Position numbers and translations under genes: made by a program. Shown here in pieces: positions 580 through 41,900 of a stretch of DNA of 64,000 nucleotides. Source of the DNA: Trypanosoma brucei (taxonomy: Eukaryota). The notes beneath the pieces were generated by a model. It worked only from the letters and a program-made list of their open reading frames with translations. It searched no databases and was not told where the DNA came from. The stretch covers positions 2,368,001 to 2,432,000 of the forward strand of contig CM000207.1 of assembly GCA_000002445.1 (NCBI GenBank), given 5' to 3'. Within the stretch, counting starts at the first letter, position 1. Every line of letters begins with the position of its first letter.

Positions 580-582
580 GAG

Positions 583-690
583 GTTGCAACTCCATGAATT
601 GTGATCCCAACCATTCCACTTGTCTCCACACAGTTATGTGCACATACAGGTGAGGCAACAAACATCCTTTGATATTAACCTTATTTTCTA
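583..690 (+). promoter_or_regulatory. Conserved ~100-nt post-stop (3'UTR) element, repeated after 13 of the 14 array genes
   Basis: 'gaggttgcaactccatgaattgtgatcccaaccattccacttgtctccacacagttatgtgcacatacaagtgaggcagcaaacatcctttcatattaacc' is present with >90% identity directly after each stop codon (e.g. 2373-2470, 4168-4265, 7948-8045). It is absent after the gene at 14382. Confidence 0.5.
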
Positions 691-8961: not shown

Positions 8962-9729
8962 ATGAGCATCACTTTTCATAACTTATGGCTACTTTTAACA
9001 GTGTTATGCACCGCAGGTATTCGTGCTGACGCAAGTAAGGAGGAGTGTCCGGATAAGGGATCTTATCCGGCAGCCGAGGACGTACTTGTATTGTGTCGTG
9101 TGGCGGAACAACTTCGAGGGTTACCGGATACAGTGAGTTCTGCTCTTGTTAATGCCGCTACTGCTTCGAGTAAAGCATTTGAAGCAAAGGTACAAGCAGA
9201 GGAAGCTGTGGAACTTGCCGAGTCAAAAGGCCTAAACGTTACGAAAGCGAAGGAAGCTGCTGTGAGAGCAACACTCGCTGCTGAAGCTGCGGCTACGGCT
9301 GTGAGCTATGCGAATGCGCACGGCACGAAAGTTGGATCGATGACAGAAATACTTTGGGAGGCGGATGAAGAGTTGCGTGAACTTGTAGTGTGTAAGAGAA
9401 TGGATGAAGAAACAATAAAAGCTGCTGCAGAGTGTACGGGCACAGCGGAAGTTGTAACAGCCCAATCACTCAGTGAGGCACTAGAGGCATTGGCTAATCT
9501 ACACTATGGTGATGAAAACGTTGCTGAAACCCTACGACGGAAAGATGTTGTGTTCCACAAAGAGCTGAAATCACTCGAAGGTTACGTGGAGGAGGCTGTT
9601 CATGCACAAAAACAGGCTGAGGATGCAGCTGCAGATGCCAATCAAGTAGCTACTGGAAATTCCGTCGCATCGCCTGAAAAGTCAGTGCTGCTACTGATGG
9701 CTGGATTGTTTCTCAGTTCTGTACTGTAA
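8962..9729 (+). CDS. BARP: BARP-family paralogue (255 aa), 'AVSYANAHGTKVGS' subtype
   Basis: Conserved signal and core up to 'AAEAAATA', then a distinct C-terminal half ('VSYANAHGTKVGSMTEILWEADEELRELVVCKRMDEE'). The GPI tail has LFLSSVL instead of LFLGSVL. Confidence 0.75.
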   Translation: MSITFHNLWLLLTVLCTAGIRADASKEECPDKGSYPAAEDVLVLCRVAEQLRGLPDTVSSALVNAATASSKAFEAKVQAEEAVELAESKGLNVTKAKEAAVRATLAAEAAATAVSYANAHGTKVGSMTEILWEADEELRELVVCKRMDEETIKAAAECTGTAEVVTAQSLSEALEALANLHYGDENVAETLRRKDVVFHKELKSLEGYVEEAVHAQKQAEDAAADANQVATGNSVASPEKSVLLLMAGLFLSSVL

Positions 9730-14381: not shown

Positions 14382-15362
14382 ATGAGCATCACTTTTCATA
14401 ATTTATGGCTACTTTTGACAGTGTTATGCACTGCAGGTATTCGTGCTGACCCAAGTAAGGAGGAGTGTCCGGATTTGGGAGGTTATCCATCAGCTGACGA
14501 CGTACTTGTATTGTGTTATTTGGCGGAACAACTTCGAGGGTTACCGGATACAATAAGTTCTGCTCTTGTTAATGCCGCTGCTGCTTCGAGTAAAGCATTT
14601 GAAGCAAAGGTACAAGCAGAGGAAGCTGTGGAACTTGCCGAGTCGAAAGGCCTAAACGTTACGAAAGCGAAGGAAGCTGCTGTGAGAGCAACACTCGCTG
14701 CTGAAGCTGCGGCCACGGCTGCAAGTAATGTGGAAATTAACGCTGCAAATATTTCTGCTTTCTCTATTGATTTTTTGGAGAGTGCGAACTTGTTGCTGTT
14801 TGAAGTTAGGGACGCAAAAGATGTTGGTGAAGACGTGAGAATCGTGGCGCAAAGGTGCACGGGTGAAGCGAACTTTGTTACGGTTGCTTCTCTAACCAAT
14901 GCACTGGATAATGTTACTTCTCTGTACTCCGTGTATGGTAAAGGCACGGCTTCTTTGAGTATGGAAAGTGTTGCCCTTTTGGAGGAGCTGAAGATGTTGG
15001 AAGATGGCTTGAAGAAGTCACAGGTTGCTGTTTCGGTGGCGGCTGACGCAGCAGACCAGTCGAAACTATTGGTAGATGCAGTTGAAGTATCGGGCAATAC
15101 TGCCAAAGGGGCTGTCAATAACCATAATACCGCAAATAATGAAAGCAACAAAGCAACAAGAAATAAAGATCAAGATGAAGGTAGAACAGTCGGAAACAAC
15201 GACAAGGAATTTACTATAACTTCTGAGGATTATACGAAGAAAAACCAAGGAGAAAACGGGGACCTGAGCTCGATTACCCTTACAGAAGATAGCGGAAGTT
15301 CTTTTATCGCTAAATATCCCTTTCACCTGTGTACCATATTCACTTTCTATACACTTCTATGA
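14382..15362 (+). CDS. Aberrant BARP-family member (326 aa): conserved N-half, divergent C-half, canonical GPI signal lost
   Basis: Identical signal peptide and core up to 'NVEINAANI'. After that the sequence is unique, with an N/K/D/T-rich tail ending 'SSFIAKYPFHLCTIFTFYTLL'. The canonical post-stop element is missing and ~180 nt of unique 3' flank follows (15363-15545). Confidence 0.6.
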   Translation: MSITFHNLWLLLTVLCTAGIRADPSKEECPDLGGYPSADDVLVLCYLAEQLRGLPDTISSALVNAAAASSKAFEAKVQAEEAVELAESKGLNVTKAKEAAVRATLAAEAAATAASNVEINAANISAFSIDFLESANLLLFEVRDAKDVGEDVRIVAQRCTGEANFVTVASLTNALDNVTSLYSVYGKGTASLSMESVALLEELKMLEDGLKKSQVAVSVAADAADQSKLLVDAVEVSGNTAKGAVNNHNTANNESNKATRNKDQDEGRTVGNNDKEFTITSEDYTKKNQGENGDLSSITLTEDSGSSFIAKYPFHLCTIFTFYTLL

Positions 15363-23486: not shown

Positions 23487-24269
23487 ATGAGCATCACTTT
23501 TCATAACTTATGGCTACTTTTGACAGTGTTATGCACTGCAGGTATTCGTGCTGACGATATCTTGAATAATTGCTCTGCTGGTAGGAAACCCCCACCGGCA
23601 GTATACGTAACTGCCTTGTGTCGTGTGGCGGAACAACTTCGAGGGTTAGGAGGGACTATTAGTTCCTCTCTTCTTACTGTAACTTCCGCGTCAAGTAAAG
23701 CATTCAAAGCAAAGGTACAAGCAGAGAAGGCTGTGAAACTTGCCGAGTCGAGAGGCCTAAACGTTACGAAAGCGAAGGAAGCTGCTGTGAGAGCAACACT
23801 CGCTGCTGAAGCTGCGGCCACGGCTGTGAGCTATTGTATTACCCATTCTACGAAAGTTGGGTCAATTGCAGAGATGCTATGGGAGGTAGATGAGGAGCTG
23901 CATGTTTTTTCGTTATGTGGTAACAAAGACAGGGATGTACAAGATACGGCATTAAAGTGTACTGATACAGCGGAAGGTGTAACAGCCCAATCGCTCAGTG
24001 AGGCGCTAGAAGGGTTAGCTAAATTAGTTTTTGACGACAACGTTGCTAGAAAGTTGCGGCAGGAAGATACTGTGTTCCAGAGAGAATTTATGTGGTTACA
24101 GCAGCACATGGAGGAGGCTGTCCGTGCACAAAAACAAGCTGAGGATGCAGCTGCAGATGCAAATGAAACAGCCGGCCCAAATACGGGACCAGTTGTGAAT
24201 TCTGTTGCATCACCTGAAGGGTCAGTGCTGCTACTGATGGCTGGACTGTTTCTCGGTTCTGTACTGTAA
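23487..24269 (+). CDS. BARP: BARP-family paralogue (260 aa), last in the array, 'AVSYCITHSTKVGS' subtype
   Basis: Core has K-for-E changes ('AFKAKVQAEKAVKLAESRG'). C-half is related to the 8962/12595 subtype. The downstream spacer is degenerate. Confidence 0.72.
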   Translation: MSITFHNLWLLLTVLCTAGIRADDILNNCSAGRKPPPAVYVTALCRVAEQLRGLGGTISSSLLTVTSASSKAFKAKVQAEKAVKLAESRGLNVTKAKEAAVRATLAAEAAATAVSYCITHSTKVGSIAEMLWEVDEELHVFSLCGNKDRDVQDTALKCTDTAEGVTAQSLSEALEGLAKLVFDDNVARKLRQEDTVFQREFMWLQQHMEEAVRAQKQAEDAAADANETAGPNTGPVVNSVASPEGSVLLLMAGLFLGSVL

Positions 24270-25446
24270 GAGGTTGCAACTCCATGAATTGTGATCCCAA
24301 CCATTCCACTTGTCTCCACACAGTTATGTGCACATACAAGTGAGGCAGCAAACATCCTTTCATATTAACCTTATTTTCTATCGATAATTATATATTTTTT
24401 AAAATTTCCTTTATATTTTCACTTTTATTATTCTTTTTACTTTACTTTACTTTTCCTTTACTGTGTTATCTTTCGAATATCTGTTGTAGCTTTTGTCCTT
24501 TATTTTCTTAATTTTTTTTAATTGTCGGGAAAGTCTCGTAATTAATAAAAATAAGTTTTTTATTACCTTTTTTTTTAATTATTTTATTCATGTATTGCAC
24601 TGAGGTGATTGCGTGTAAGCATGGCCACCTATGCGTTACCATTGTAAAACCGTTTTGCTAAAATCTATCATTTCTACGCATCCATAATGTCCTATTGTAT
24701 GCGTAAAGCTAACTGATTCTGAGGGTTTTTATTTTATCATGAAGCAAAACTGTTACACTGTGGGTTTACCTTCACATATCTCTCTCCCATTACTCATTAC
24801 ACTTATTTTATGTTGTATTCTCTCCCTTTTTATTTCATATCTCTATATTTTATGTTACTGTCAGTAGGTTGTATCGTAATAGTGTAGGATACCCTAAATG
24901 CTCAATACATGTGCTCTTACTGATTCCATCAGATATTGATATTATCGTGTCTAATGAAATGACTATTGGAAGTTTGGGTGTGTGCTATTGCATTGCCTCT
25001 CTGCTTTGTAATTATAATATTTGATTTGTTCTTGCATCGTGTTATGTTTTTATGTTTCTTTTTTGTTTATAGGATAGTATTATTTTTTGTTATGATGTTG
25101 AAATTTCGTACTTCAAAAAAAATATTAGTGGTGTAATATCCTTTCCTTTGTCGGTTATTTAGTTTTTCTCTTGACACCTTGTTTCTATTGTTATTGACCT
25201 TTTTTTCCCCCATTCTTTTAATCATTTACTTTCTTCTTTTTTAATATATGTGTACTTTATAGTTTCTTTATGTTCTAATATTGCTTGTTCGTGTTATTGT
25301 GTTGGTGCGAAAATAATTCATTTTTTTTTTTGTCGTTGTTTCATATATCCTTGTGCATATTTTTCTTTGGCTTCTCTTTTGTAGTAATAAGTGTGGAAGG
25401 TGGAGGGCGGAGGGAACGAGTGAGTTTTAATACAAATTAGTCGTAG

Positions 25447-26487
25447 ATGCACTCATGTTGGATTGGTTCGCTGTTACTACTAGTGGGACTTATGTTTTTT
25501 AGTATTGTTTGCCGAGCAAATGGAACGGAAGTGAAGCCGCTGGAAGAAAGTGCAGAGGATATTTGTGCGGCCATGAAGTCCCTTAATACCGTAAATAACA
25601 CTGTACAAAATATTATTACCACCATACGCAATCACAAGGCGAAATTGATACGCTATCTCCAGGATGTAGAGACGGCATTTGAAAGGACGAGTAGCGCAGC
25701 CGCTGCAGCGAAACAATACGGGGGAACCTTCCGAACTGCGTCGGTGGCATCAAAAATTGCGAATGACGCAATGTCCAACTCCACGCGGGCCATGTTGGAT
25801 GCTGAAACGAGTCACAACACGACTCTTATTATTGAGGCGGCGGCGAATATTGAAGCACAGAGCGCGAGAGACAACGCAACTGCCGCCGCTGTGGCACTTC
25901 AGGCGATATGGAAAACGACAGTTGGCACTGCCAGACTTCAAGCGAACCATACGGATTGTGTGTATACACCAGCTGATCAGATGTTGACGTCCCAGAAGCT
26001 GAATGAGCACAAAGAGAAGCTGGTGGTAACAGATAGCAAATATAATGATGAACACAAGGAGTTGAAGGAGCTTTGGGCGCGGAGTTATCTGAAGCTCTTC
26101 CTCCCGCTCGACCAGCTCCATATGTTATTGCAAAAGTTGGAATGGGATGTTGCCACAACGTCAGAGATGGAAACCACTGCAGAAAAGGCAGCTGATGCAG
26201 CAGTAGCGGCGCAAGAGGATGTTGAGAAGGCGGCAGAGTTGGCGGCGGAGAGTGCGACAGAATCTGTACGGGCAAAACGATACTCTGATCGTGTCGCAAG
26301 AGGGAATATGAAATTTAAAACCATCGCAGGATTTCATGAGGAACCTCTACCCGAGGTCGTCCCTCGTCCCGGGGCAAAGGCATCTGCCGCGTCCGATCCA
26401 TTGGAAAATGAAGACGGCGCTTTTTATGTGTCCAGGGGAATAATGCCGCTCAGTCAAGCTTTTTTCGTAATTGCGTTTACCATATAA
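25447..26487 (+). CDS. Alanine-rich secreted/GPI-type protein (346 aa), possible distant BARP/GARP-like (Fam50-like) relative
   Basis: N-terminal signal peptide 'MHSCWIGSLLLLVGLMFFSIVCRANG'. Ala/Glu-rich helical-looking stretches ('AEKAADAAVAAQEDVEKAAELAAESATESV' cf. BARP 'VEEAVRAQKQAEDAAADA'). Several NxT/S sites. C-terminal hydrophobic tail 'GIMPLSQAFFVIAFTI'. Preceded by a T-rich tract at 25150-25400. Confidence 0.6.
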   Translation: MHSCWIGSLLLLVGLMFFSIVCRANGTEVKPLEESAEDICAAMKSLNTVNNTVQNIITTIRNHKAKLIRYLQDVETAFERTSSAAAAAKQYGGTFRTASVASKIANDAMSNSTRAMLDAETSHNTTLIIEAAANIEAQSARDNATAAAVALQAIWKTTVGTARLQANHTDCVYTPADQMLTSQKLNEHKEKLVVTDSKYNDEHKELKELWARSYLKLFLPLDQLHMLLQKLEWDVATTSEMETTAEKAADAAVAAQEDVEKAAELAAESATESVRAKRYSDRVARGNMKFKTIAGFHEEPLPEVVPRPGAKASAASDPLENEDGAFYVSRGIMPLSQAFFVIAFTI

Positions 26488-28156: not shown

Positions 28157-31100
28157 ATGAGTTGTTTAAGAAGCATCTCGCTGTCGGTACCTCCGCACGC
28201 CCTTTCGACGTTCAGCAGAACGGGAATGTTATATGTTATGTATGTCTTGCTTCTTCTCATGCCCTATCCGCTGCAAGTGCACGGCGCTCCAGCAAACATC
28301 AACGTTAAGGTTTTACTTTGTACCTGGAACACGCGTGTACCAAAAATTTTCACCACCGCAGTTAACGCTGGTTTCAATGCGTCAATGGAATCACGCAATT
28401 GGACCATAGCCGACAGGGTGAAGGTGCAGGTAGTTCAATCCAGTACGAGTCACAAAACCCCGGAAGAATTTATCAAAGACGAGTTGAGTAAGGAAACAGA
28501 CAAGAGTGGCATCACGATTGTGTTTGGCCCCGTAGGTGACGACACTACGCTGGATTCTATTTCTGAGTTGCAGAAGCACGAGGTGGTTGCGTTCGGTCCC
28601 ATGACTGGATCTGGAGAGGTTCGGCGGTGGGTTCGTGAGCTCTATTTTCTACGCCCAAGCCCAACAATCGAAACCATGGTGCTCATTCGACATGCATTGG
28701 GTCATCTAGGTGTATTGCGACTGGGTTTCATGTATCTGCAGGGCCATCATTATGGAGAGAAAGAGTATGAGGTGGCATTGCGGGTAATGGAAGAAATGGG
28801 CTACCAACTTTGCGGTGTCTTTGTTGTGTTAAATGTTAACGATAAACCCGCACCCGACAAGGAATTCAACGCAGTGTTTGAGCGTTTTGCAGCTACTAAG
28901 CCACAGGCTGTGCTTTTGTTTGGTGCTCCCAAATCCGACACGGGGAGGTTCCTGAGGAAGTTGGTGGCGGACCGACGCACCTCTGGGGCCTACGTCCTCG
29001 CTCCCTCTGGGGCGCAGGTGTTTCTGGAACTTATGTGGAAACGAGTTCTGCTTGACAGTCAAGTCTCCCCCTTCCCCGGGAAGCTGCTCATTGCTGGCAC
29101 CAACCCACTTGCGAAGAACGAACAGTACGTGGCCATAAAACGCTTTCAAGAGGTGATGCGAGAGTATCTGAAGACTCACACCAGCGAAACGGGCATCACG
29201 GACCCGAACTACTTCTTGAAACATGACACAGATGGTGAAATGATGGTGTACGGCTGGGCTGCTGGCGAGGTGCTGTCGCAGGCGCTAAGCGTCCCTGAGT
29301 GGCTCAAGGACAGGACAACATTCATGGACTCGCTGTATAATCAGCGCCGATACGTTATTGCTGACTTTGTAATTGGCGACTTCGGTGGTGATTGCGAAGG
29401 GGAAGCAGCCAAGCAGGGTGCCGTCTGTTATTGCAACCAAGGTGGAAATGTGGTGTACGTGAGAGAGGTTGAGGATGATTTCAGCATGCAAACGCCGAAA
29501 GATGGCACGGTGGGACTGGCCGCACTGCGCTGCAATGCTGACTCGGTAACGCTACATTCCCCATTGAATGGGCTTGTTATTTTCTTTGGTGACAACACAA
29601 TTGCCGTGAAAGCGACCGCGGCGTGGCTTGTTGGCGCCCTCCGCCACGATACCGGGTCACTAGAGTATTCAGGCCAACTCTTTCTGCACGCATTTGGCAC
29701 CACCACATCTGACTCTGCGAAGGCCCTGAAGGAAGAGAAGAAAAAACGAACTGTCACCGCCGTGTTCGGCATTGTGACGAAAGCGCTTATGAAAATGACC
29801 AACACGCTGTTCATTGACCCAATAACAATTGAACCCCAGTTGAACAAGTTCCGGAGGCATGTGATTCACCTCTCCCCAACGGTGGAGCAGCAAATCTACG
29901 TGCTAACACGCTACCTCTCCAACAACAGTGGTAAAGAGGCAAATGCCATTGTTTGCGCTGCAGAAGCGCATGGTATAATGAAGGTTATCCGAAAGTCCTT
30001 GGAAAAGTGGGGAGGTTCGCTGAATATCTCACTGGTGCGCAGGAGGGGTGCCGCGCTTACCGGCCACCTTCCCACCAGCGGGGCAGTGTTTGTTTTCGGT
30101 ATATCTGCCGCTGACGTTGATGTGATTGAGAGGCACCTCGCTGCGCATAGTGAACTTCGTGTGCTTGTCCTTTTCTCCGAGGTGGCATTGCTTTATGAGA
30201 AGTTTGTCACGGCCTTCAACGGCAGCGCCGCGGCCCCTCGCCTCGTGTTTGCCACCAACCTTCCACACTGGTATGACAATGAAACATCGTCACCAACAAT
30301 CCTGAAGTTTCACGCCACAGTGGAGAGCCGAGAAAAGTGGACGCCAATGACACTAATGGGCTTCGTTACCGGGACGCTGATGAGTCTGGCGCTCTTGCGC
30401 GTGGAACGGGTAAACATGAGCACGCTTGCAAACTTCTTCTTCGTTGAATCCTCCGTAAATGTCGACGACATGCGGTATGGCGTCTTTAGCGACTCGGAGT
30501 GTGGTTCGGGGGAAACCGGATATGGCGATATGTGCCGCACCAACTATGGGGCGACGCGCATTAGTGTGTGGTCCATGTCGCGTGTATTTAATGCTTCAAT
30601 CGAGCTGCTCGCCGAGCCCGTGACACCTTCCTTGAAGTTTTTATTGGAGTGGGACGGGCTTACCAGGGCTCAGCTGGTAGGAATCATTGTCGGTTCCACC
30701 CTCTTCGTGATGCTGCTTGCTGCGCTCGGTGTTTTTATGCACATCACCTTACGTGATGCCCGCGATAATGTGAGTGCACCTATGGACCCGACGGACCCCG
30801 TGACGCTCATCTTCACGGATATTGAAAACAGCACGTCGCAGTGGGCCTCACATCCCAATGTCATGGCCGATGCCGTTGCCGCGCATCACTCTCTGATACG
30901 GACACTAATTGGGAACTATGATTGCTACGAAGTGAAGACCATAGGTGACTCTTTCATGATTGCGAGCAAGAGTGCCACGGCGGCAGTGAGGCTTGCCCGC
31001 GATTTGCAGCGCTGCTTTCTAAACTACCGTTGGGGTACGGACAGCATCGACAACTTCTACCGTGCTGAGGAAAAACAAGTGGCTGAGTTGAACAGCAAGG

Positions 31101-31885
31101 CCGAACCCCCGAGCGCCCAACTGGACCCCGAAGTGTACAGGAAACTGTGGAATGGCCTCCGCATCCGTGCTGGGATCCACACCGGGTTGTGTGATATTCG
31201 GTACGACGAGGTGACGAAAGGATATGACTATTACGGTCAAACGGCAAACATGGCTGCCCGCACGGAGAGCATTGCGAATGGTGGACAAGTGCTTCTGACA
31301 CGTGCAACGTACTTCTCTCTAAGTACAGCGGAACGTGAGCAACTTGATGTGACTGCACTTGGTTCCGTGCCACTGCGGGGTGTACCCGAACCCGTGGAAA
31401 TATATCAACTGGATGCTGTTCCTGGGCGAACCTTTGCGCCGCTGCGTCTAGATCACGAGGCATATGTGGCGGATGAGAGCAGTGATGTTTCCCATACGAC
31501 CTTCAACGACTGCATGTCAATTTCCTCTCAACTAGGAGCAGGTGGGGAAAGTGTTTCCAATGTTTTGCACGCCCTACTCGGCACATTCACAATTGTTCAG
31601 CGGCAGAAGGAATTGACGGCAATATGTGAGCGCTGGCGTGTCCCTCTTCCACCCTGGAAGGAAGCCGTGTGGAATGATGAATATTATCAGGAAGCTATAC
31701 ATCGCCTTGCAGTTAAGGTGGGTCACATTGTCGATGTCGCCGCAGTCGAGCGTGTTGGACGCCCTACGGAATCATCGGACAGCTCCTCCGTCATTTTGAT
31801 TTCTAATCCTGCGGTGGATCAATCCACGGAAGATTTGGAAGGCGATGCTTTTGAATGCGGTTGGGAGGAAAAGGGGAAGCAGTAG
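28157..31885 (+). CDS. GRESAG4: Receptor-type adenylate cyclase (GRESAG4 family): large extracellular domain, single TM, class III cyclase catalytic domain
   Basis: 1242-aa ORF. TM helix 'LVGIIVGSTLFVMLLAALGVFMHI' (~30670-30750). It is followed by the cyclase catalytic core 'LIFTDIENSTSQWASHPNVMADAVAAHHSLIRTLIGNYDCYEVKTIGDSFMIASKS ... GIHTGLCDIRYDEVTKGYDYYGQTANMAARTES' (ends 'IANGGQVLLT'). The true start may be the Met at 28226 ('MLYVMYVLLLLMPYPLQVHG' = signal peptide). Confidence 0.9.
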   Translation: MSCLRSISLSVPPHALSTFSRTGMLYVMYVLLLLMPYPLQVHGAPANINVKVLLCTWNTRVPKIFTTAVNAGFNASMESRNWTIADRVKVQVVQSSTSHKTPEEFIKDELSKETDKSGITIVFGPVGDDTTLDSISELQKHEVVAFGPMTGSGEVRRWVRELYFLRPSPTIETMVLIRHALGHLGVLRLGFMYLQGHHYGEKEYEVALRVMEEMGYQLCGVFVVLNVNDKPAPDKEFNAVFERFAATKPQAVLLFGAPKSDTGRFLRKLVADRRTSGAYVLAPSGAQVFLELMWKRVLLDSQVSPFPGKLLIAGTNPLAKNEQYVAIKRFQEVMREYLKTHTSETGITDPNYFLKHDTDGEMMVYGWAAGEVLSQALSVPEWLKDRTTFMDSLYNQRRYVIADFVIGDFGGDCEGEAAKQGAVCYCNQGGNVVYVREVEDDFSMQTPKDGTVGLAALRCNADSVTLHSPLNGLVIFFGDNTIAVKATAAWLVGALRHDTGSLEYSGQLFLHAFGTTTSDSAKALKEEKKKRTVTAVFGIVTKALMKMTNTLFIDPITIEPQLNKFRRHVIHLSPTVEQQIYVLTRYLSNNSGKEANAIVCAAEAHGIMKVIRKSLEKWGGSLNISLVRRRGAALTGHLPTSGAVFVFGISAADVDVIERHLAAHSELRVLVLFSEVALLYEKFVTAFNGSAAAPRLVFATNLPHWYDNETSSPTILKFHATVESREKWTPMTLMGFVTGTLMSLALLRVERVNMSTLANFFFVESSVNVDDMRYGVFSDSECGSGETGYGDMCRTNYGATRISVWSMSRVFNASIELLAEPVTPSLKFLLEWDGLTRAQLVGIIVGSTLFVMLLAALGVFMHITLRDARDNVSAPMDPTDPVTLIFTDIENSTSQWASHPNVMADAVAAHHSLIRTLIGNYDCYEVKTIGDSFMIASKSATAAVRLARDLQRCFLNYRWGTDSIDNFYRAEEKQVAELNSKAEPPSAQLDPEVYRKLWNGLRIRAGIHTGLCDIRYDEVTKGYDYYGQTANMAARTESIANGGQVLLTRATYFSLSTAEREQLDVTALGSVPLRGVPEPVEIYQLDAVPGRTFAPLRLDHEAYVADESSDVSHTTFNDCMSISSQLGAGGESVSNVLHALLGTFTIVQRQKELTAICERWRVPLPPWKEAVWNDEYYQEAIHRLAVKVGHIVDVAAVERVGRPTESSDSSSVILISNPAVDQSTEDLEGDAFECGWEEKGKQ

Positions 31886-32138
31886 TAACAGCAGTAGTGA
31901 ATTGAAGTCGATCAGACAATTGTGAGTGCTGCCGGCAGCACTTGAGGTAAATTAACGTGAGGCGGTTTTTTTTCCTTTCCTCTCTGTTTCTCACGTTTCA
32001 TCTCTTCTTGATTTATTTTTACTTTTGTGTGCGTGTTTCGTCGTGTTTTGTTTTGCGTCTCAGTTGAACTGTGGTCACATGTCCTCTTTTTACATCTTAA
32101 CGTTGCCTTCAGAGTGTCTTAATCCATTTATAAATGTT

Positions 32139-32161
32139 TATATATATATATATATATATAT
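32139..32161. repeat. (TA)n microsatellite
   Basis: 'tatatatatatatatatatatat' seen directly. Confidence 0.9.
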
Positions 32162-33269: not shown

Positions 33270-36203
33270 AACTGAAATATATATATGGAGGGTTGTGGCA
33301 TTATTATTATTATTACTGTTTACTATTGTTAATGCTATTGTTAACATCTCAATTATTTATTTCTGTTACTGTTTTTTTTTACTTTTCATTTTTTAGTTAG
33401 TAATGCAAAAAGATGGATTTCATAAAATGCTTTCACCTGCGGCAGCTATCGTTATTATCACAATGAATCGGATGCGTGCACACAGGCCTTCACGCTTATT
33501 ATTTTATTTTATTTTTTAGCGATTGATAACAACAAGTAAAAACACAGATGAAAGCTTCGTTTTGGCAATGGAGAAATTATCATATGTCATTCAATACAAA
33601 ATTATAATAACTATAATATAATATAAATGGTGCTTACGAATCAATCGGATTGTGTTGGGGACGTGCCGGAAGGCACGTCAACGGGTTTCCAACACACGAA
33701 CGATCAGGGAAGTGAACGGCAATTGCAACTTGTTTTTTATTTGTATTTTTATTTTTGCTCTTGAGTCTAATGGTGGTGATGAGCATATTTGTACAGAGTA
33801 ATTGGGGATGTTTTCATGCCGGATGTTATGGTTTATTACATGAAATGCCCTTTTGGTAAATGCGTTCCATCAATTTTCGTCAAACTGACCGCTGTTATTG
33901 TTGTTATTGTTGTTTTTATTCATACACGCGCTAAATGATTGTGGGATCAGTTTATGGTACCGTTCAAAAATGTATATAACACGGCGTTGCATTTATGCAT
34001 GAAGTTAAGTTAAATTAAGTTAGGTTAAGTGAATTGTTCATTCAGTTGTCAAATATGCGAGTTTGAAACAGTGATTAAAGGATGGAACGGTGTGAAGTGC
34101 TCGATATCTCTTCTTTTTTTTAAAAAAAAAGTATATAAAATAAAGCAAGAAAGGATTTGAACGGGGTTTCGGAGGAATTCCTTCGTTAGTAAATTCTTTT
34201 TTTGATGCCTCCAGTGGTTTCAGGAACCGAACATAGATTATAACATCTCAAGTGGAAACTTAAATTTCACACGAAAATATGCCTTTTGAAAGTCGTTTAC
34301 AGCAAATGGCCATTAGCAATGATGTGCGTTGATCCTCCCGCCTAAGAGGTGATAACTTAAACCTTTAAAATGCTGGAAAGAATCTTTGAATAAGTTGAGT
34401 GTATGACATTATGGTTCCTTAACTCTAAATAAAACGCCACATATTGTAATGTTGAGGTACGGGGACTTGTGTGTCCCTCTACGCCCATTGGGGAGGGGAG
34501 AGCCGCGTATTTTAACTGCATTTGCAGCGTTTTATCCCTCAGTGTGTGGGTGTGGCCCATTTAAGGAATGCACAGCTGAAAGATGCTCCTTGAAACTGCT
34601 TTTGCTTTCACCCGTTAAATCCATGAAGCGATGACTTGCAACAAAAACAGCGTTTGTACGTGTATATTAATATGTTTATGTACGTGTGTGAATATGGATA
34701 TAAATATTGATATTGATATTTCCTCCTTGAGGATAATAGTAATTTCTTTCTTCAAGCGTTTGTCCTGCCCCAGTTACAACAAAGTAACATCCACATGTGT
34801 CTTCCTCTGCTGTTGATTTTGACGTGACTGCGAGACGTCCACTCGACAATGCGAAGATGTGGGAGAGCATGGCTGCGTTATACAGGTGTTTGCACTATCA
34901 ATTTGCTCGGCCCCTTATCAAGGGCTTTCGTTTTTACGTGTTAATGAAACCACGAATTAATTCATCAGTACCGTTGACTGCTCTTTCCGCTATGGGCGGC
35001 ATCAGAGATGTAACCGCACCATAATAGTGATGCGCCGACGCTCATAAGGAATGTGGTTTTCCACCTAAGTAGACTGTGAGGTGATGCTCCATTTGTATAT
35101 GCGCCGGTAGGGGCCATTTAGAGGCAAATGATATTCGTGTGTGTACACGTTCGCGTGTGTGCATGAGGGCTCTGGAACTTAAACTGGAGGTGTAAAGCAT
35201 ATACACGCCGACACTTCTATTTTTTTGGGGGGGGGAAGTACCAAATCTGACGGAGGGTTTGTCGTTTTCGCCCGGAGGATGTACCATTTTAAAAACTTAG
35301 GTTAATCAAATCGAAGAACATGTCGGCCGTGTTGATTTCAAGTGGGGTGTTTGTTGTGGGGAACAGCACACAAGTTAAAAGGAGTGCACAGTGCATGAGT
35401 TGCCTTGTGGGGTGGACCGGTGCATACATACGAATATTCAGAGACTCTTTTGGGTCTTTTTTTATTTTTTTAAAAAAAAACTTTGAAGATGCCCCTGCTG
35501 ATTTATAGTTACTCCACATCCGAGCGATGATTGAGTGGGAATGATCGCAGAGAGTCATACGCGTGTCGGCACTCCTGGCTTTTTTTCTTTTTATCAGGTG
35601 AGGTTGGTGCGTGTGTAACGGAAGCAGAAGAAGGTAAAGCGGGACGAATAGGAGAGTCTCAGTGGCAAAAGGATTCGTTACTGGCATGAAACTAATTGCC
35701 AATTCAAAGAGCTTTTCCGCATCTTTCCCAACAAGACGGGAGACGATAAAAGAAACAGGGCTGTGTAAGGGGGGAGGAAAATGGGCGAGCAATAGCCGCT
35801 GCAGTTAAAGAGTATGTGCTGCCTTGTGGGAAAGTTTAATGATTTGCATTCCTCAGCGGTGAGGTTAGGAATGAAAAAAAAAAATTTCCTATGGAAGAAA
35901 TCTCGCGGTTGGGTGCTGGGGAAGCCGAAGCGGCAGTTTGGGTCGCGATCATGCAATCCGCATCACTCGTGAAAAAATGTCTGGTTGACCACGCGTTTTT
36001 GTCGGTAATTGTGGGTCAGTGGCGCGCTATGACCTCTTCTAAAACCAATAAACAAATTGTCAACGAGGCTAGAACTTAACACATGTGGGTAAAGTCCGTT
36101 GTGGTGTAGCCGCTGGTTCGAACAATCCTAAATGCTTTTTTTTTGCAATTTTTTAAGACACTCAACGTTGCTCCTCCCTTTCCCTCACCTTACCTCAGGG
36201 AGT

Positions 36204-37439
36204 ATGAGAACGATCCTCACCACATTAGGGTTATTGTTAGGCGTCACGCAGTACTCTGTGGGTGTCCCTGGAGCTGCCCTCAGCGTTGCAGCCGCTAGAA
36301 TAGTGTGCGAAGCGGCTATGGAACTTGGGAGAGCCGAATCTTATATCTCGATGAAACTGCGCGAAACGCGCGACTTGATCGAGTCCTTGAAAGTTGCTCG
36401 CAGACTCCTTGATGGCAAACTGCAGCGGGACAGACCCATCGGGGAGGAGTGCCTGAACGCAGTTAAGCTTATCGCTCACGCAGATGGTCTGGGTCGCAAA
36501 CTAGAGTCGCAATATTATGAGTTGGAGAGGATAGGGTTCAAAACCGCCTCCAAGTCCCGGCTGGCCTCCGGGAGACTCCACGAATTTATTTTAGTGTTTT
36601 CCCAGTGGCACGACGGCGAGGGCAGATGCATTGCCAACGGGGACGAGGAGGGCGACACACAGGGTGAAGTCACGCTGCGCCGTTGTATGAGCAGTTTGGT
36701 TAACGGAAGCTACGAAGACGGTGGCGGTGGCGTCCATCACAACTTCCCGCGTTATCTGAGGGAATCATTTCAGAATCTTTTTACGCTAGATGAGGATGTA
36801 TCGCTGAACAAGGATAATGGATGTCCTCTGACAAGGTGGAAAGTCATCCACAACGCAACGGCAAATGCCACGGGACGGAGTGGGGCCGCGGAAGATGTTA
36901 GGTGGGCAGGTGGGCTCCTTATTGTCACAGGTAACGGCCCCAGATGGATTTCAGACATTGAAGGGGTCCCGATGCTATCCAAAACGAAAACTAGCCTTGG
37001 AAAATTTGTGTCGATGTCCAGTAAAATTACCAGTGCCTTCAGTAATTTTATGGGAATAGTTTGGGCAGACAACCCGTGGTTGGTGAACAGCAGTGAAGTG
37101 GACAGTCTGATCGTGGGTGTTGACCTCTACATCTTTATGCACCCTTCCAGGGACTTCCAGATCAATGAAAGGGACCTAGACCGCCTGACAAAAACTTATT
37201 GTGGCGAACCCCTCCCCGCTCACGTGCGGCTCAGCGACAAAGTTGCTGACGGAAGGGACGGAAATAGTGACGTCTCGCCTCGCGGCCCTGTAGTCCCCGC
37301 AAACATATCTGAAACCAATACGATTTTCGGTAGCGATGATGACGATGAAGATTACAATGGTTTAACGGAGGTTAAGGCTGGGACCGAGCTTCTGTCGTTG
37401 TTGTTTCCCCTCGTGGCAATAAACCTTTTTCTTGTCTGA
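36204..37439 (+). CDS. GPI-anchored surface protein of the ESAG6/7-PAG (transferrin-receptor-like) lineage, 412 aa from the second Met
   Basis: Signal peptide 'MRTILTTLGLLLGVTQYSVG'. Motif 'ASGRLHEFILVFSQWHDGEGRCI' closely resembles ESAG6 'AAGRLEEWIFVFAQAAGRSSQFCI' (from memory). C-terminal GPI-type tail 'GTELLSLLFPLVAINLFLV'. The ORF-track start at 36132 lies inside the upstream polypyrimidine tract (36135-36198), so 36204 is the more likely start. Confidence 0.7.
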   Translation: MRTILTTLGLLLGVTQYSVGVPGAALSVAAARIVCEAAMELGRAESYISMKLRETRDLIESLKVARRLLDGKLQRDRPIGEECLNAVKLIAHADGLGRKLESQYYELERIGFKTASKSRLASGRLHEFILVFSQWHDGEGRCIANGDEEGDTQGEVTLRRCMSSLVNGSYEDGGGGVHHNFPRYLRESFQNLFTLDEDVSLNKDNGCPLTRWKVIHNATANATGRSGAAEDVRWAGGLLIVTGNGPRWISDIEGVPMLSKTKTSLGKFVSMSSKITSAFSNFMGIVWADNPWLVNSSEVDSLIVGVDLYIFMHPSRDFQINERDLDRLTKTYCGEPLPAHVRLSDKVADGRDGNSDVSPRGPVVPANISETNTIFGSDDDDEDYNGLTEVKAGTELLSLLFPLVAINLFLV

Positions 37440-38904
37440 TGTGAATGTAAAAGAAGTAACTGGCTCGTATATACATTGATCTCTTGTATTGGGTAGAGCT
37501 CGCCATTTTGCAGCCTATGCGTGCCACAACATCTGTCACCGTGTGTAACAAGTGAAGTTCCAGTTTACCTTGGTCATTGCATTTAACTTTCCTAAACCTC
37601 CATCCACATCGTGCACTCCGCCAAACTGTAGCGCGGGAAGTTGTTGAAAAATGTGAATCTCATTGCATCCTTTTGCAATCCGACTTTCTTGGTCCACGCA
37701 AGCATGGGTCAGAAAGCATTTTAGCCAACCTCGGAAGTCACAACCAAGGAACTCATAAAAAGAGCTCCTTCCTCCCTGGTACAGTGCGCTGTCAAAATAA
37801 AAGTCCTGTCCCCCTTTCCCTGACTGTTTTCTCCGCCGGTTAGGGCGGCTGCAGCGTTGGTAGAACCAGGTGGTATTTCGCGCTAAATCCTTATTCCAAA
37901 TGACGGTAGAACGCATCAAATGAGAGCAAACACAGAAAATTCGGTTATGATACTATTGTGATGCAGTCATTTCGGAAAGACGTGCAAAGGCGGTAGTGTT
38001 CAGCAGCGCAGCATTGTCGTCAAGGGAAACGGCGGGTAATGGGATGAGACAGTGGAGAACCCAGCACGCTGAAAGCTGAAGCACATTACAGACTCGTAGT
38101 GTTCAAGGAACGAACTGCACCTGCGTTAAGGTGCATGTCAACTTCAAAAATGCGAGGAATCAGCGCTGCTACTGAGAGGATTGTTGATTGCCACAGGAAG
38201 TGGCCCACCAACATGGTGCAGTGCGGTGCAATGAGGAGATCACTTGCTCACGCGACTCACAGAGGGAACTGAAGAGTATGCTACGGCCAAGTTAGAGCCA
38301 AGTGTACTGGACAGGATTATGAGGTGGGAACAGATAGGAACTAACAAGAAATCAAAACTACGTTTGTAAGATACACAAAGAAGAGGCGCACTGAAGATTA
38401 CTTCATGCCGCACTATTTTTGTGGCGGCCAAACTTAAAAGTGGAGAAGGGTAAAGGAAGTCAACGAGTGCCCGAAGCTTTTGTAATTATTTGGTTGAAGG
38501 AAGTTGCTCCAAAATGACGTGCGGAATGGCCGCGCAGCTAAGGCGGGAGAGAAAATTGTAGTAATTTAAAGCAAGGGTGAAGGAGCTTACCTGCTTATTT
38601 GCTTAAACGGCTGCACAGCAACCGTAGGGCAAAGAAATGGAATTCAGAAATACGGTAGAGGAAGATATGTGTACACGTGCAGCCGGTGTGGTTCCTTTGG
38701 GGTTCCGTTAGGTATTAAATGGGGGTAAAGCCATTGTCAATGACAGTGAGCACGAGGCCGAAGATAACGGCTGGTTCATCCGCTTACACAAGCAAATTTT
38801 TCAACAAACAGATACTTTTTTAACTTTCACTAACTGTAATTATATGCCTCTCAGTTAAACATAAGGCTAATAAATTCCAAAAGCGTTTCGATCGTAACGA
38901 TAGC

Positions 38905-41900
38905 GACATATGTCGCTAAGACACACATGAAAACATGCACAGTGGTCGTACCAAAGTATCCTCACCAGCGTAGCAACACAAAAAGTTAATGGAAATTTCC
39001 TATGGAAGAGAAACCATGCGATATTCCGGTAAGGCACTTGAAACCCTTCAGTAGCAGGCGATATCCACGGATCGTTAACAACATGGAATGAGAATCACAA
39101 CACACAAGGGGGAAAGGAATCGCAATTACTCTTTGAATATCAATACTTTTAGAGGGTCGAACTATCATCTGTCATCTGTCCCACGTGGCACTCTCACACA
39201 CCACATCAAGGGTGATGGGAGAAATTTTTTGTGGGAGCATACGATGGCCGATGAGTTGGTGAGAGATCAATTATGTTTGCAACACTGCCGTTTTGGTTAT
39301 TTTCTACTTGAGCACCTTTGATACAGTGGGCCATATCAGGGTTGTGCAATAAATGCGTAAAGTTAGTGGAGAAAAGTCTAACACCCTCTGCACCGCATCC
39401 TTACCAACAGAAGGAATGGCAGCAGCTCACTTAGATAAATCACTTCCCCCTGACAAGAATAGTTTAACAGAGGGCAGGTGAAAGGCACAGTGTTCAGCCT
39501 TTTACTGTTAAAAGCTGCAGTTACCTCCCTTCATTTTCTTACCAAACATCCCAAGACACAGCTTAAAGCATGGATTCTTTGTGGAAGACTTGACAGTGAG
39601 GAGAGGGAACGTGGATGGCTTTTCAGAAGGAACTGAATGTTATAGCTGTGATAGGAATCCGTATTTACTTCAGATAACTCGTCACGAAGAAAACAGGGTG
39701 TGAGGTGTTGGGAGGACATTTGGGGTCACGGTAATGCGGAAACGCGGCGACACCCACTCCATGTTGAATTTATATCCACACCGTTAATGTACTGGCAAAT
39801 CGGATATCCGCAGCGCCTTCTTACCCATAGAGTGCAAAGTGAAGAATACAAACTGACATTGACACTCTTCATTACTTCCAACATGTATTACACACGCGTT
39901 ACTCGGATGTAAGATATCGTGTGATTACAGGAGTTATTTCAAATATCAAGAGAGCTATGGAGAGTAATGGTTTCCTGATCTTTTTTCACCCATTCTGCCA
40001 TTTCATATCATCTCTCCCATGAAATTTCGATGATATGGGGAAACAATGTGTGGTGGAGCGTATATGTAAAAAGAAGACCTGAGGGCACTTTCACCCTGGG
40101 CACCTTGTCACACGAAATAGGAGCTATGGAAGACTTTCTCACTGAGGGTTGAGCCCCTTCCACACTATTTCATGGGATTCGTGCGAAGGGAAAACAGAAA
40201 AATTATGTTTTAGCAGTAGTCATGAAGAGTTTAATTTTGTGTGAAGTAATAACCCTGAGAACACTGAAACACTTCCATGAGATGTGTGGAAGAATGTCAA
40301 AATGTCAAGAAAGCTCAAAATACTTCACTTTTTGGTTCTTTTTTGATTTTGCTAGAGGACAAGGGTGAAACATGCAAGGCACTATGTACTGGGTTGTATT
40401 TTTAGTGGCGGTACTACAGGGTATTCATTTAGTGTCGGGCCAGGAGGAGATATTGAATGAACAAGAGTTTGAAGCGTTGTGTCGAATGATAAATTGGGCA
40501 GAAAGGGGACTGAAGCACATAAAAGTAACAAAACGAGTTACCCAAGAAGCTCTGAAAATAGGCGTAAGATATCTTGAAGTGGCCGGTGAGGAAAATGCTG
40601 CTGAACTCGCTGAGGCACAGGACTATTCTTGTACGAAGAGAATGGAGGATCGGAAAAGGAATTGTGGGCTGTACAAAACATTTTGGGAAGAGGCGCAGAG
40701 AGTATTGAACAAAGGGGTTGACAGCGGAGAAAGACCTGAGCGAAAAAAAAACGGCTTGCGGGAGCACAGTGCAGAGATTAGAAAAAAGGCAATGGAAGTG
40801 GCAGATATATATCACGAAATCGAAGCGAAGAGTCCATCTGGACAAGTAGAAAAGATTGAAGAACAGCTCAATAAAGCTCTTTATGGAAGGACACACACTG
40901 CTGAAGAGATAAGGGAAAGAGAAGAGCGAAGCAGGGTGTGCGGGAAAACATTACCAAATCCACCTAATAGAGAAGACCAATCACTAGCCGTGGATTTGCT
41001 GTGCTTGTGTGCAATGCACGGCTCTTGGAACGGCAGGGAGATATGCTGCGCAGACTGCACCACAGGAAGAAATAGCGAGGAGTGGAATCCAGAATCAAAC
41101 AGCGCGCACCGCTGGGAATTTCTGAAACAGAAGTGTGCGGGAGTCATTCCAAGCTATGGTAGCACGGGGGAAAGACTGCGTGATGCAAAACAAAATTTTA
41201 TGGATGCAGTAACGAAAATAACTACAAGGAGGGGGGAGCAGTTGTCCAAACTAGGAGAAAAGCAAAACAACAACGTAAAAGACTGCGGCGCGGACACAAG
41301 CAAGAGCCAAGGAATATGCATGCTGTACGGAGCAGTTGACGGAGTGAACCTGCCCTGGATGAAAACTTTGGAAAGTGTCGAAGACAGGATAGGACTTCTG
41401 ATGCAAGAGAGCCAAGACAAGACATCAAAACTTGAGAGAATTAAAGAGCTAAGTCAAGAGATAGAAAGCTTAATCAAAGGTGATACGGGGCGAGGAAGAC
41501 AACAGGGAAGACAGAAACGGAGTGTGGATACCGAGAACAGTGTCCCAGAAACCCCAGCTGACCCGAGCGATCCAACACAGTCAACCACAGATACCAATAG
41601 AAAAAAGCAAGGTGAAAGGAAACCGATATCAACAGGTAACGGTGCATCCAAAAGCTACGGTGGAGATGAGGTTGATTCTTACGATTCCAAATGCGATGGA
41701 GAAAACTCGGCATGCTCAGATTCACCAGCAAAGCCAACAGTAAAAAGCAGCAAAAGTGCTATAAATTGTCCACTGGGATTAATTTTGCTTTTGGTATAAA
41801 CGAAAAGTTCCAACACAAGGTAAGGAAAAAGAGATGGAATTGGTTGTGTTTGCGGCATCTCAATATTCCACACGGAGTGGGATGGTGTGCATTTCAAAAC

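What the first reader, a model, noticed from the sequence alone, without database searches (positions are those of the whole stretch)
25447..26487. Divergent alanine-rich GPI-type gene sitting immediately after the array terminus
Directly after the array decays at 24360-25020, a 346-aa ORF encodes a protein with a signal peptide, Ala/Glu-rich helical segments reminiscent of the BARP core, many N-glycosylation sequons and a C-terminal hydrophobic tail. It may be an ancient, diverged founder or outlier of the same family (Fam50-like). Its position at the array boundary makes it a candidate for the ancestral single-copy locus from which the tandem array expanded.
Basis: inference. Interest (0 to 1): 0.55.

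Follow-up and report, generated by a model that had tools for sequence, protein, structure and literature searches.

The report
Orphan three-helix surface protein beside BARP
The gene just after the Trypanosoma brucei BARP array is a real, conserved single-copy gene for a probably GPI-anchored surface protein with the long three-helix-bundle shape of trypanosome receptors, but no sequence test places it in the BARP/GARP family and nothing supports it as the array's founder.

Summary
Window 25447..26487 (+) is a 346-aa ORF, identical to Tb09.244.2390 (by position Tb927.9.15650). It lies between the last BARP gene and adenylate cyclase ACP6. It has a signal-peptide-like N-terminus, six N-glycosylation sequons, 16% Ala and a GPI-signal-like tail.

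The public label "T. brucei spp.-specific" is wrong. T. congolense has orthologues (35% identity, E=5.6e-38), each about 2 kb downstream of a GARP gene, so the array-edge position predates the species split.

Fam50 membership fails by sequence. There is no PF16731 hit. hhalign against BARP/GARP/FHR/MISP profiles gives about 1% probability. The same BARP/GARP profile does recover FHR and MISP.

It is best read as a separate, receptor-length lineage of the trypanosome three-helix-bundle superfamily. Its mRNA is low in tsetse stages and lacks BARP's salivary-gland burst. The founder idea has no support. Function is inferred, not shown.

The parts
23487..24269 (+). Last BARP gene of the tandem array (260 aa). 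By position this is Tb927.9.15640.
   Evidence: PF16731 GARP, E=5e-68. The T. b. gambiense locus has the same gene order.
24270..25027 (+). Tail of the last BARP repeat unit (BARP 3' flank). Array homology ends at 25027.
   Evidence: blastn gives 89-91% identity to the two preceding inter-BARP spacers over 758 bp and nothing beyond.
25028..25446 (+). Unique upstream region of the ORF. Long polypyrimidine tracts (about 25160-25385) are followed by AG dinucleotides (about 25384-25392). This is the expected context for a trans-splice acceptor, which is inferred and not mapped.
   Evidence: Read directly from the sequence. No homology to the BARP 5' region.
25447..26487 (+). CDS of the 346-aa protein, Tb09.244.2390 (by position Tb927.9.15650). 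The range includes the stop codon.
   Evidence: T. congolense orthologues P0002 and P0008.
25447..25518 (+). Signal-peptide-like segment, aa 1-24 (MHSCWIGSLLLLVGLMFFSIVCRA). The C-R-A before the predicted cleavage site is conserved in T. congolense.
   Evidence: Alignment A2. Inferred from sequence; no predictor was run.
25531..25719 (+). Helix A, aa 29-91. It contains C40 in the context DIC-AAMKSLNTV.
   Evidence: AF2 model m1bbbdb293c4a; per-10-residue mean pLDDT 83-97 over aa 31-90.
25732..25932 (+). Helix B, aa 96-162. It contains the invariant D-N-A-T-A-A block and the only sequon conserved with T. congolense (N143).
25933..26055 (+). Head region at the N-terminal end of the bundle, aa 163-203. 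Its membrane-distal position is inferred from the C-terminal anchor. It has short helices, C171 and the conserved LTSxxLxxHKExLxxTDxKY block.
   Evidence: The 20-aa windows starting at aa 171-211 are 45-55% identical to T. congolense, against 33% overall.
26056..26325 (+). Helix C, aa 204-293. This long third helix runs toward the membrane.
26326..26430 (+). Predicted disordered linker, aa 294-328.
   Evidence: pLDDT below 50 and no secondary structure in the model.
26431..26484 (+). Candidate GPI-addition signal. The proposed omega site is S329 within the conserved S-R-G, followed by 17 residues (RGIMPLSQAFFVIAFTI).
   Evidence: S-R-G is invariant in both T. congolense homologues and is followed by a hydrophobic tail. 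GPI addition is inferred; no predictor was available.
28157..31885 (+). Downstream neighbour: a receptor-type adenylate cyclase (1242 aa), ACP6 / Tb927.9.15660.
   Evidence: Pfam PF25493, PF25495 and PF00211. The ACP6 identity comes from PMC9481589 and from supplementary tables of PMC8483307.

Best explanation
The ORF encodes a secreted, N-glycosylated and probably GPI-anchored surface protein. Its ectodomain (aa ~29-293) is an elongated three-helix bundle. A small head sits at the end that carries the N-terminus. A disordered linker of about 35 residues leads to the anchor.

It is a single-copy, separate lineage of the trypanosome three-helix-bundle surface-protein superfamily. That superfamily includes HpHbR, GARP/BARP/FHR/MISP, ISG65 and VSG. 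The gene is conserved in T. brucei and T. congolense and has sat at the edge of the BARP/GARP array since before the two species diverged.

Three features point away from a coat protein like BARP. It is single-copy. Its mRNA is low. Its folded region is HpHbR-length (about 265 residues, against about 185 in GARP/BARP). The most likely role is a low-abundance ligand-binding receptor that works within the insect-stage coat, using the more conserved head end of the bundle.

Shown here: the gene is real and conserved; the synteny; the predicted fold and its nearest structural neighbours; the lack of sequence-profile similarity to Fam50. Taken from published supplementary RNA-seq tables: transcription in tsetse stages. 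Inferred: signal-peptide cleavage, GPI anchoring, a C40-C171 disulfide, surface location and receptor function.
For: - Fold. AF2 with the 3-sequence alignment gives pLDDT 76.4 and pTM 0.64, with helices 29-91, 96-162 and 204-293.
- Foldseek agrees. Its 10 best hits are the same proteins, with E between 5e-6 and 7e-3.
- Separate lineage. phmmer against 1.84 billion representatives finds only the T. brucei cluster and one T. congolense cluster. There is no Pfam family. No PDB sequence hit to any trypanosome protein appears at E<=10.
- Synteny. GARP (PF16731, E=1e-33) lies about 2 kb upstream of both T. congolense homologues. The order BARP-ORF-cyclase is the same in T. b. gambiense.
- Selection. 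The CDS is less diverged than the 3.9-kb stretch containing it, at 0.67% against about 1.5%.
- Head end more conserved than average. Windows starting at aa 31-41, 131 and 171-211 are 45-55% identical to T. congolense, against 33% overall. The windows over the turn at the other end (aa 71-100) are also raised, at 40-45%.
- Expression (PMC8483307, S3 and S5 tables). Tb927.9.15650 goes from 50 in proventriculus to 86 in salivary gland (padj 0.25). BARP Tb927.9.15640 goes from 50 to 417. In one midgut time-point comparison of S3 the ORF rises from 18.6 to 62.4 (padj 0.011); which days were compared was not identified.
- Paradigm. TcHpHbR is about 25% longer than GARP and binds its ligand at the membrane-distal side (PMC5268388).
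Against: - No protein-level or localisation data were found for this gene. It is absent from the main text of every paper in the library, and from the held supplement text (some files truncated when stored) of the spatial-proteomics and single-cell papers checked.
- The structure is a prediction from only 3 sequences. Only 2 of 5 models were confident.
- The C-terminal hydrophobic stretch is short, at about 9 residues, and no GPI predictor could be run.
- Low mRNA and single-copy status fit a receptor but do not prove one. GARP, BARP and MISP have the same fold and no known ligand.
- Conservation of the head end is modest, rests on a single species pair, and is matched by a rise at the opposite turn.
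Confidence: 0.6

Rival explanations
1. The gene is an extremely diverged Fam50 (BARP/GARP-like) member that arose by local tandem duplication next to the array, and may be its ancestral founder copy.
For: - It sits immediately next to the BARP array in T. brucei and next to GARP in T. congolense.
- Composition is similar.
- The only two cysteines of the mature protein sit in contexts resembling the two Fam50 cysteine motifs.
  - The ORF has C40-x5-L-x2-V, against Fam50 C-x5-L-[RH]-x-[LI].
  - The ORF has C171-x8-LTSQKL (T. congolense LTSRAL), against the Fam50 'ubiquitous Cys + VTxxSL' motif of PMC3605285.
  - Cys-Cys spacing is 131 residues, against 113-121 in Fam50.
- A non-significant HMMER alignment places C171/LTSQKL on the Fam50 C/VTxxSL columns.
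- A relaxed motif pair occurs in 13 of 200,000 shuffles with the cysteines fixed. The pattern was defined after seeing the data, so this is not a real probability.
Against: - No significant sequence or profile similarity appears in any test. Genuine distant Fam50 members on other chromosomes are recovered by the same profile at 1e-10 to 1e-14.
- The ORF lineage evolves no faster than BARP/GARP (35% against 33-39% identity between T. brucei and T. congolense). Any split from Fam50 would therefore have to predate the whole Fam50 radiation.
- The strict Fam50 motifs are not matched in spacing or residues.
- It is structurally at least as close to HpHbR.
- The ORF's 5' flank is not homologous to the BARP unit's 5' flank.
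- A 'founder' role cannot be tested from position alone.
Confidence: 0.25
2. The gene is a diverged relative of the haptoglobin-haemoglobin/haemoglobin receptor (HpHbR) lineage and takes up a haem-carrying or similar ligand in the fly.
For: - The folded region is HpHbR-length rather than GARP-length.
- TcHpHbR is an insect-stage (epimastigote) receptor that works within the GARP coat (PMC5268388).
Against: - There is no sequence similarity to HpHbR chains in the PDB at E<=10, with either the single sequence or the profile.
- HpHbR sequences could not be fetched for a direct profile-profile test.
- No synteny evidence links the two.
Confidence: 0.1
3. The gene is a VSG-related (A-type) protein, as the UniRef name of the T. 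equiperdum copy implies.
Against: PF00913 does not hit the protein at E<=1. VSG structures score no better than generic helical bundles and well below HpHbR and Fam50. The protein is much shorter than a VSG and has no VSG C-terminal domain.
Confidence: 0.03
4. The ORF is a chance or decaying open frame at the ragged end of the array and makes no functional product.
For: mRNA level is low, and no proteomic detection was found in the papers searched.
Against: The 346-codon frame is intact in all full-length T. brucei-group copies, with full-length orthologues in T. congolense (E=5.6e-38) that keep the signal peptide, both cysteines and the S-R-G/hydrophobic tail. The CDS is more conserved than its surroundings. 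The predicted fold is confident. The gene is transcribed and changes significantly in one midgut comparison.
Confidence: 0.02

Closest known systems
T. congolense haptoglobin-haemoglobin (haemoglobin) receptor, TcHpHbR (PDB 4E40, 5JDO)
   Different: There is no detectable sequence similarity (17% identity in the structural alignment; no HMMER hit at E<=10). The genomic locus is different. No ligand is known for the ORF.
Fam50 / PF16731 GARP-domain proteins: BARP, GARP (2Y44), factor H receptor Tb927.5.4020 (6XZ6), MISP (5VTL)
   Different: It fails every sequence and profile test that unites Fam50 members. Its folded domain is about 40% longer than that of BARP/GARP. It is single-copy, and it lacks the roughly 8-fold rise in the salivary gland seen here for the adjacent BARP copy (the source paper reports about 40-fold for BARPs overall). 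It was not found where Fam50 was checked: the main text and the one held supplementary table of PMC3605285, which lists only one representative gene per family.
ISG65 (complement C3 receptor; PDB 7PI6, 8OVB) and C3bBbR Tb927.11.1470
   Different: ISGs are type I transmembrane proteins of bloodstream forms with disordered head loops. The ORF has a GPI-type tail. Its transcripts were seen in tsetse-stage data; bloodstream-form levels were not retrieved.

Membership tests
Fam50 / Pfam PF16731 (GARP domain: BARP, GARP, CESP, FHR, MISP) | A significant match to the PF16731 GARP profile (gathering score 27.4 bits). | tested here: not met
   PF16731 does not hit the T. brucei protein or either T. congolense homologue at E<=1. 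The neighbouring BARP scores 228.9 bits and the T. congolense neighbour 116.9 bits.
Fam50 / Pfam PF16731 (GARP domain: BARP, GARP, CESP, FHR, MISP) | Profile-profile or profile-sequence similarity to an alignment spanning BARP, GARP, FHR and MISP. | tested here: not met
   hhalign probability is 0.7-1.6%. hmmsearch --max full-sequence scores are -1.7 to -7.4 bits. As a positive control, the BARP/GARP profile finds FHR at 1.8e-14 and MISP at 1.3e-10.
Fam50 / Pfam PF16731 (GARP domain: BARP, GARP, CESP, FHR, MISP) | A ubiquitous cysteine followed a few residues later by a VTxxSL-like motif (Jackson et al. 2013, PMC3605285). | tested here: inconclusive
   The ORF has C171-x8-LTSQKL and T. congolense has C-x8-LTSRAL. 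Fam50 has C-x6-7-V[TN]xxxL. This is a near match with different spacing and a different first residue. The shuffle test (13 of 200,000) used a pattern defined after seeing the data.
Fam50 / Pfam PF16731 (GARP domain: BARP, GARP, CESP, FHR, MISP) | [quoted passage not shown] | tested here: met
Fam50 / Pfam PF16731 (GARP domain: BARP, GARP, CESP, FHR, MISP) | An N-terminal signal peptide and a C-terminal GPI-addition signal. | not testable with these tools
   Sequence features consistent with both are present and conserved: C-R-A at the cleavage site, and S-R-G followed by a hydrophobic tail. No SignalP or NetGPI was available and there are no experimental data.
HpHbR family | Sequence similarity to T. 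brucei or T. congolense HpHbR. | tested here: not met
   Neither the protein nor the profile A2 hits the HpHbR chains (4E40, 5JDO, 4X0J) in the PDB sequence search at E<=10.
HpHbR family | A three-helix bundle of HpHbR length with a distal head. | tested here: met
HpHbR family | Binds haemoglobin or haptoglobin-haemoglobin. | not testable with these tools
   This needs recombinant protein and binding assays.
VSG A-type N-terminal domain (PF00913) | A significant PF00913 match and a VSG-like dimeric N-terminal domain. | tested here: not met
Trypanosome three-helix-bundle surface-protein superfamily (structural class) | The predicted structure's nearest neighbours are the trypanosome three-helix-bundle surface proteins, clearly above generic helical bundles. 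| tested here: met

The most novel reading that the evidence does not exclude
Tb927.9.15650 and its T. congolense orthologues could be a previously unrecognised, HpHbR-length receptor of insect-stage African trypanosomes. Under this reading it has been kept at the edge of the BARP/GARP coat-gene array for the whole history of the T. brucei/T. congolense lineage. It would bind a tsetse or blood-meal ligand through its conserved head end. That would make it a fifth functional class of three-helix-bundle receptor, after HpHbR, FHR, ISG65 and C3bBbR.
Probability: 0.3. Interest if true: 0.6.

Novelty: new member of a known kind. Interest (0 to 1): 0.35.

Why it matters
Three-helix-bundle surface proteins are the main receptor scaffold of African trypanosomes. 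Known examples are the haem (HpHbR), factor H, C3 and C3bBb receptors. Each newly characterised member has revealed a host or vector interaction.

This gene is annotated only as hypothetical, or as 'T. brucei spp.-specific'. The results here correct that label, because T. congolense orthologues exist in conserved synteny. They give the protein a confident fold class. They also show it is neither a BARP-type coat protein nor a recognisable Fam50 member.

That makes it a concrete, cheap candidate for ligand screening and for fly-transmission knockouts. It is not a surprise to specialists, who have predicted more such proteins (PMC5268388). The evolutionary 'founder' story that made the finding attractive is not supported.

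Tried and rejected
Sequence routes to Fam50 all gave nothing:
- Pfam.
- BLASTP against the adjacent BARP.
- hhalign against three increasingly broad Fam50 profiles, in local and global modes.
- hmmsearch --max with a BARP+GARP+FHR+MISP profile. The FHR and MISP sequences for that profile were rebuilt from the HMMER alignments.
- PDB sequence searches with the single sequence and with the profile.

Searches for more relatives found only one T. brucei-group cluster and one T. congolense cluster:
- An exhaustive phmmer over 1.84 billion representatives.
- A word-indexed profile search.
- T. vivax and other trypanosomatids gave no hit at E<=0.001.

Structure prediction and fold search:
- The single-sequence AF2 model was poor (pLDDT 50.8) and was replaced by the alignment-based model.
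- The afdb50 fold library was unavailable, so uncharacterised structural relatives in other trypanosome proteomes could not be sought.

A test of whether the ORF occupies a BARP repeat-unit slot was negative. Only the BARP 3' flank is retained and the ORF's upstream 419 bp are unique.

Literature:
- The gene IDs Tb927.9.15650, Tb09.244.2390 and Tb927.9.15500 are absent from all main texts searched.
- They are also absent from the held supplement text of three relevant papers.
- They are not in the one held supplementary table of the cell-surface phylome paper, which lists only family representatives.

Other checks:
- Rfam found no RNA family in 24000-36500.
- Tandem Repeats Finder found no tandem repeat in 24000-28200.
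- Weak Pfam hits (Clusterin, Spo12, DUF948, ISG65-75) are below their thresholds and were treated as coiled-coil or compositional noise.

Full report
**Where the window comes from.** The window is Trypanosoma brucei brucei TREU927 chromosome 9.
- From the window start to 24269 it holds about 14 tandem BARP genes with a period of about 1.8 kb. Each is a strong match to Pfam PF16731 (GARP); for example the last copy, 23487..24269, has E=5e-68.
- The finding's ORF follows at 25447..26487.
- A 1242-aa receptor adenylate cyclase follows at 28157..31885.
- The ORF's translation is identical to XP_827702.1 / Tb09.244.2390.
- Supplementary tables of PMC8483307 and the data statement of PMC9481589 identify Tb927.9.15640 as a BARP, Tb927.9.15650 as 'hypothetical protein' and Tb927.9.15660 as ACP6. 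The ORF is therefore assigned to Tb927.9.15650 by position. No sequence-level check of that ID was possible.

The ORF is 346 aa.
- It has a hydrophobic N-terminus ending in C-R-A.
- It has six N-x-S/T sequons.
- It has 15.9% Ala and 8.1% Glu, close to BARP's 14.6% and 7.7%.
- Its tail is ...YVS-RG-IMPLSQAFFVIAFTI.
The BARP repeat unit continues for 758 bp after the last BARP stop codon and ends at 25027, at 89-91% identity to the preceding spacers. The 419 bp before the ORF's ATG are unique.
- Those 419 bp carry long polypyrimidine tracts followed by AG dinucleotides. This is the normal context of a trypanosome trans-splice acceptor (inferred, not mapped).

**It is a real gene, and it is not T. 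brucei-specific.**
- The public name 'T. brucei spp.-specific protein' is contradicted by an exhaustive phmmer search of 1.84 billion representatives. Besides the T. brucei-group cluster, that search finds a T. congolense IL3000 protein of 351 aa (P0002, 35% identity over aa 21-299, E=5.6e-38). A second T. congolense copy, P0008, is in the same cluster.
- The three-way alignment (A2) keeps the C-R-A at the signal-peptide end, both cysteines of the mature protein (C40, C171), an invariant D-N-A-T-A-A block, and a well-conserved stretch LTSxxLxxHKExLxxTDxKY...WARxYxKLF. It also keeps an S-R-G just before the hydrophobic tail, a plausible omega, omega+1, omega+2 of a GPI signal.
- T. b. brucei and T. 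b. gambiense differ at 7 of 1041 coding positions (4 synonymous, 3 non-synonymous), or 0.67%. The whole 3.9-kb stretch differs by about 1.5%. The counts are small but fit purifying selection.
- No other relative was found in any organism.

**Synteny is conserved.**
- In T. b. gambiense the order BARP-BARP-BARP-ORF-cyclase is the same.
- Both T. congolense contigs that carry a homologue also carry a GARP gene about 2 kb upstream on the same strand.
  - L001 5468..6247 matches PF16731 at E=1e-33 and is nearly identical to the crystallised GARP sequence. The homologue follows at 8320..9375.
  - L002 has the 3' part of a GARP gene at 41..619, then the homologue at 2662..3756.
- BARP and GARP are sister arrays (PMC3605285). 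The gene was therefore already a distinct neighbour of the array in the common ancestor of the two species.
- No adenylate cyclase was seen in the about 3 kb available downstream in T. congolense.

**Is it a Fam50 / BARP-GARP family member?** By sequence, no.
- PF16731 does not hit it or its T. congolense homologues at E<=1.
- BLASTP against the adjacent BARP finds only compositional matches.
- hhalign of the ORF, or of its 3-sequence profile, gives 0.7-1.6% probability against 13 BARPs (A1), against BARP+GARP (A4), and against BARP+GARP+FHR+MISP.
- hmmsearch with all filters off gives negative full-sequence scores.
- The control matters. The BARP/GARP profile alone recovers the distant Fam50 proteins FHR (6XZ6, 1.8e-14) and MISP (5VTL, 1.3e-10) from the PDB.
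- The ORF's T. brucei/T. congolense orthologues are as similar to each other (35%) as BARP is to GARP (33-39%). The lack of signal is therefore not explained by unusually fast evolution. Any common origin with Fam50 would have to be older than the Fam50 radiation itself.

**A residual hint remains.**
- The two mature cysteines lie in contexts that resemble the two Fam50 cysteine motifs.
  - ORF: DIC-AAMKSL-NTV and TDC-VYTPADQM-LTSQKL.
  - BARP: ALC-RVAEQL-RGL and LKC-TDTAEG-VTAQSL.
  - FHR: ALC-EVAKQL-RKL and KEC-ATAVADD-VTPEAL.
- Cys-Cys spacing is 131 residues, against 113-121 in Fam50.
- Jackson et al. define Fam50 by a ubiquitous Cys followed by VTxxSL 'with slight variations'.
- A relaxed pattern covering both motifs occurs in 13 of 200,000 shuffles with the cysteines fixed. 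I wrote the pattern after seeing the data, and the strict Fam50 pattern is not matched, so I count this as inconclusive.

**Structure.**
- Single-sequence AlphaFold2 was poor (pLDDT 50.8).
- With the 3-sequence alignment the best model reached pLDDT 76.4 and pTM 0.64. Per-10-residue mean pLDDT is 83-97 over most of aa 31-270, with dips to 67-79 at the helix A/B turn and in the head.
- Helix A is aa 29-91, helix B aa 96-162, a head region with short helices aa 163-203, and a long helix C aa 204-293. A disordered linker and the hydrophobic tail follow.
- Foldseek gives the same ten proteins first.
- The fold class is therefore secure as far as a prediction can be. It does not discriminate between Fam50 and HpHbR.
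- The folded part (about 265 residues) is HpHbR-sized rather than GARP/BARP-sized (about 185). TcHpHbR is described as about 25% longer than GARP, with a ligand site on the membrane-distal side (PMC5268388).

**Expression.** All values are from RNA-seq of fly-derived T. brucei (PMC8483307, S3 and S5 tables).
- Tb927.9.15650 has low counts.
- It rises from 18.6 to 62.4 in one midgut time-point comparison (padj 0.011). I did not identify which days were compared.
- It goes from 50 in proventriculus to 86 in salivary glands (padj 0.25).
- The adjacent BARP Tb927.9.15640 goes from 50 to 417 in the same proventriculus to salivary-gland comparison.
- ACP6 falls from 26 to 7.
- So the gene is transcribed in insect stages but is not co-regulated with BARP.
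- I did not retrieve bloodstream-form values.

**Interpretation.**
- The best-supported reading is a single-copy, probably GPI-anchored, glycosylated three-helix-bundle surface protein. It forms its own small lineage (T. brucei group plus T. congolense) within the trypanosome three-helix-bundle superfamily.
- Copy number, mRNA level and length make it look more like the low-abundance receptors (HpHbR, FHR, ISG65, C3bBbR) than like a coat protein.
- The head end of the bundle (aa 31-60, 131-150, 171-230) is somewhat better conserved between species, at 45-55% against 33% overall. The turn at the other end (aa 71-100) is also raised, so this pattern is weak evidence.
- Receptor function, surface location, the GPI anchor and the C40-C171 disulfide are inferences.
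A very old tandem-duplication origin from a Fam50-like ancestor is possible and fits the adjacency and the cysteine contexts. Nothing measurable here favours it over descent from any other three-helix-bundle gene.

**Novelty.**
- The gene is annotated but uncharacterised. I found no paper that discusses it.
- The new points are the corrected phylogenetic distribution, the conserved array-edge synteny, the fold assignment and the negative Fam50 test.
- Specialists expect more three-helix-bundle proteins to turn up (PMC5268388), so this is a new member of a known kind. It is useful as a candidate for ligand screening but is not surprising.

Noticed in passing
window 14382..15362 (+): One BARP array member is 326 aa. 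It has a normal GARP domain (PF16731, E=1.4e-61) but a completely different, longer C-terminus that is Asn/Lys/Asp-rich and ends ...YPFHLCTIFTFYTLL. The canonical ...NSVASPEGSVLLLMAGLFLGSVL GPI signal is missing. It also lacks the Cys that the other copies have at BARP position 144 (alignment A3). It could be a BARP isoform with a different anchor or tail, or a decaying copy.
   Followed up: partly
window ~38900..64000 (+); VSG_B genes at 40372..41799, 48831..50255 and 57284..58708: This is a second tandem array of three units of about 8.45 kb. Each unit carries a 474-475-aa gene with a B-type VSG domain (PF13206, E=5e-84). Much of the non-coding part of the units is 95-100% identical between copies. 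Segments inside the N-terminal coding regions drop to 64-76%. The pattern suggests diversification of the coding part, or homogenisation of the flanks by gene conversion.
   Followed up: partly
window 36132..37439 (+): A 435-aa ORF between ACP6 and the VSG_B array has a weak but above-threshold A-type VSG domain (PF00913, E=8.7e-7, 29 bits against a cutoff of 22.1). Counting the BARP genes, the three-helix ORF, ACP6 and these VSG-related genes, every sizeable ORF examined in the 64-kb window is a surface-protein gene.
   Followed up: no
window 25447..26487 (public annotation): The public annotations of this gene conflict with each other. The names in use are 'T. brucei spp.-specific protein' (TREU927, DAL972), 'hypothetical protein, conserved' and 'Trypanosome variant surface glycoprotein (A-type)' (T. 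equiperdum UniRef entries). The first is wrong, because T. congolense orthologues exist. The last is not reproduced by Pfam here.
   Followed up: yes
PMC10089363, Fig 1 legend (literature): The MISP paper lists Tb927.9.15660 among BARP IDs represented by a peptide group. Other sources identify Tb927.9.15660 as the adenylate cyclase ACP6. This is probably a typographical slip in that legend.
   Followed up: partly
L001 and L002 (T. congolense IL3000 contigs CAEQ01000393.1 and CAEQ01001741.1): The two T. congolense contigs carry near-identical GARP + orthologue pairs, and the protein copies differ at a handful of residues. They may be two tandem or dispersed copies, or unmerged haplotypes. Copy number in T. 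congolense is therefore uncertain.
   Followed up: no
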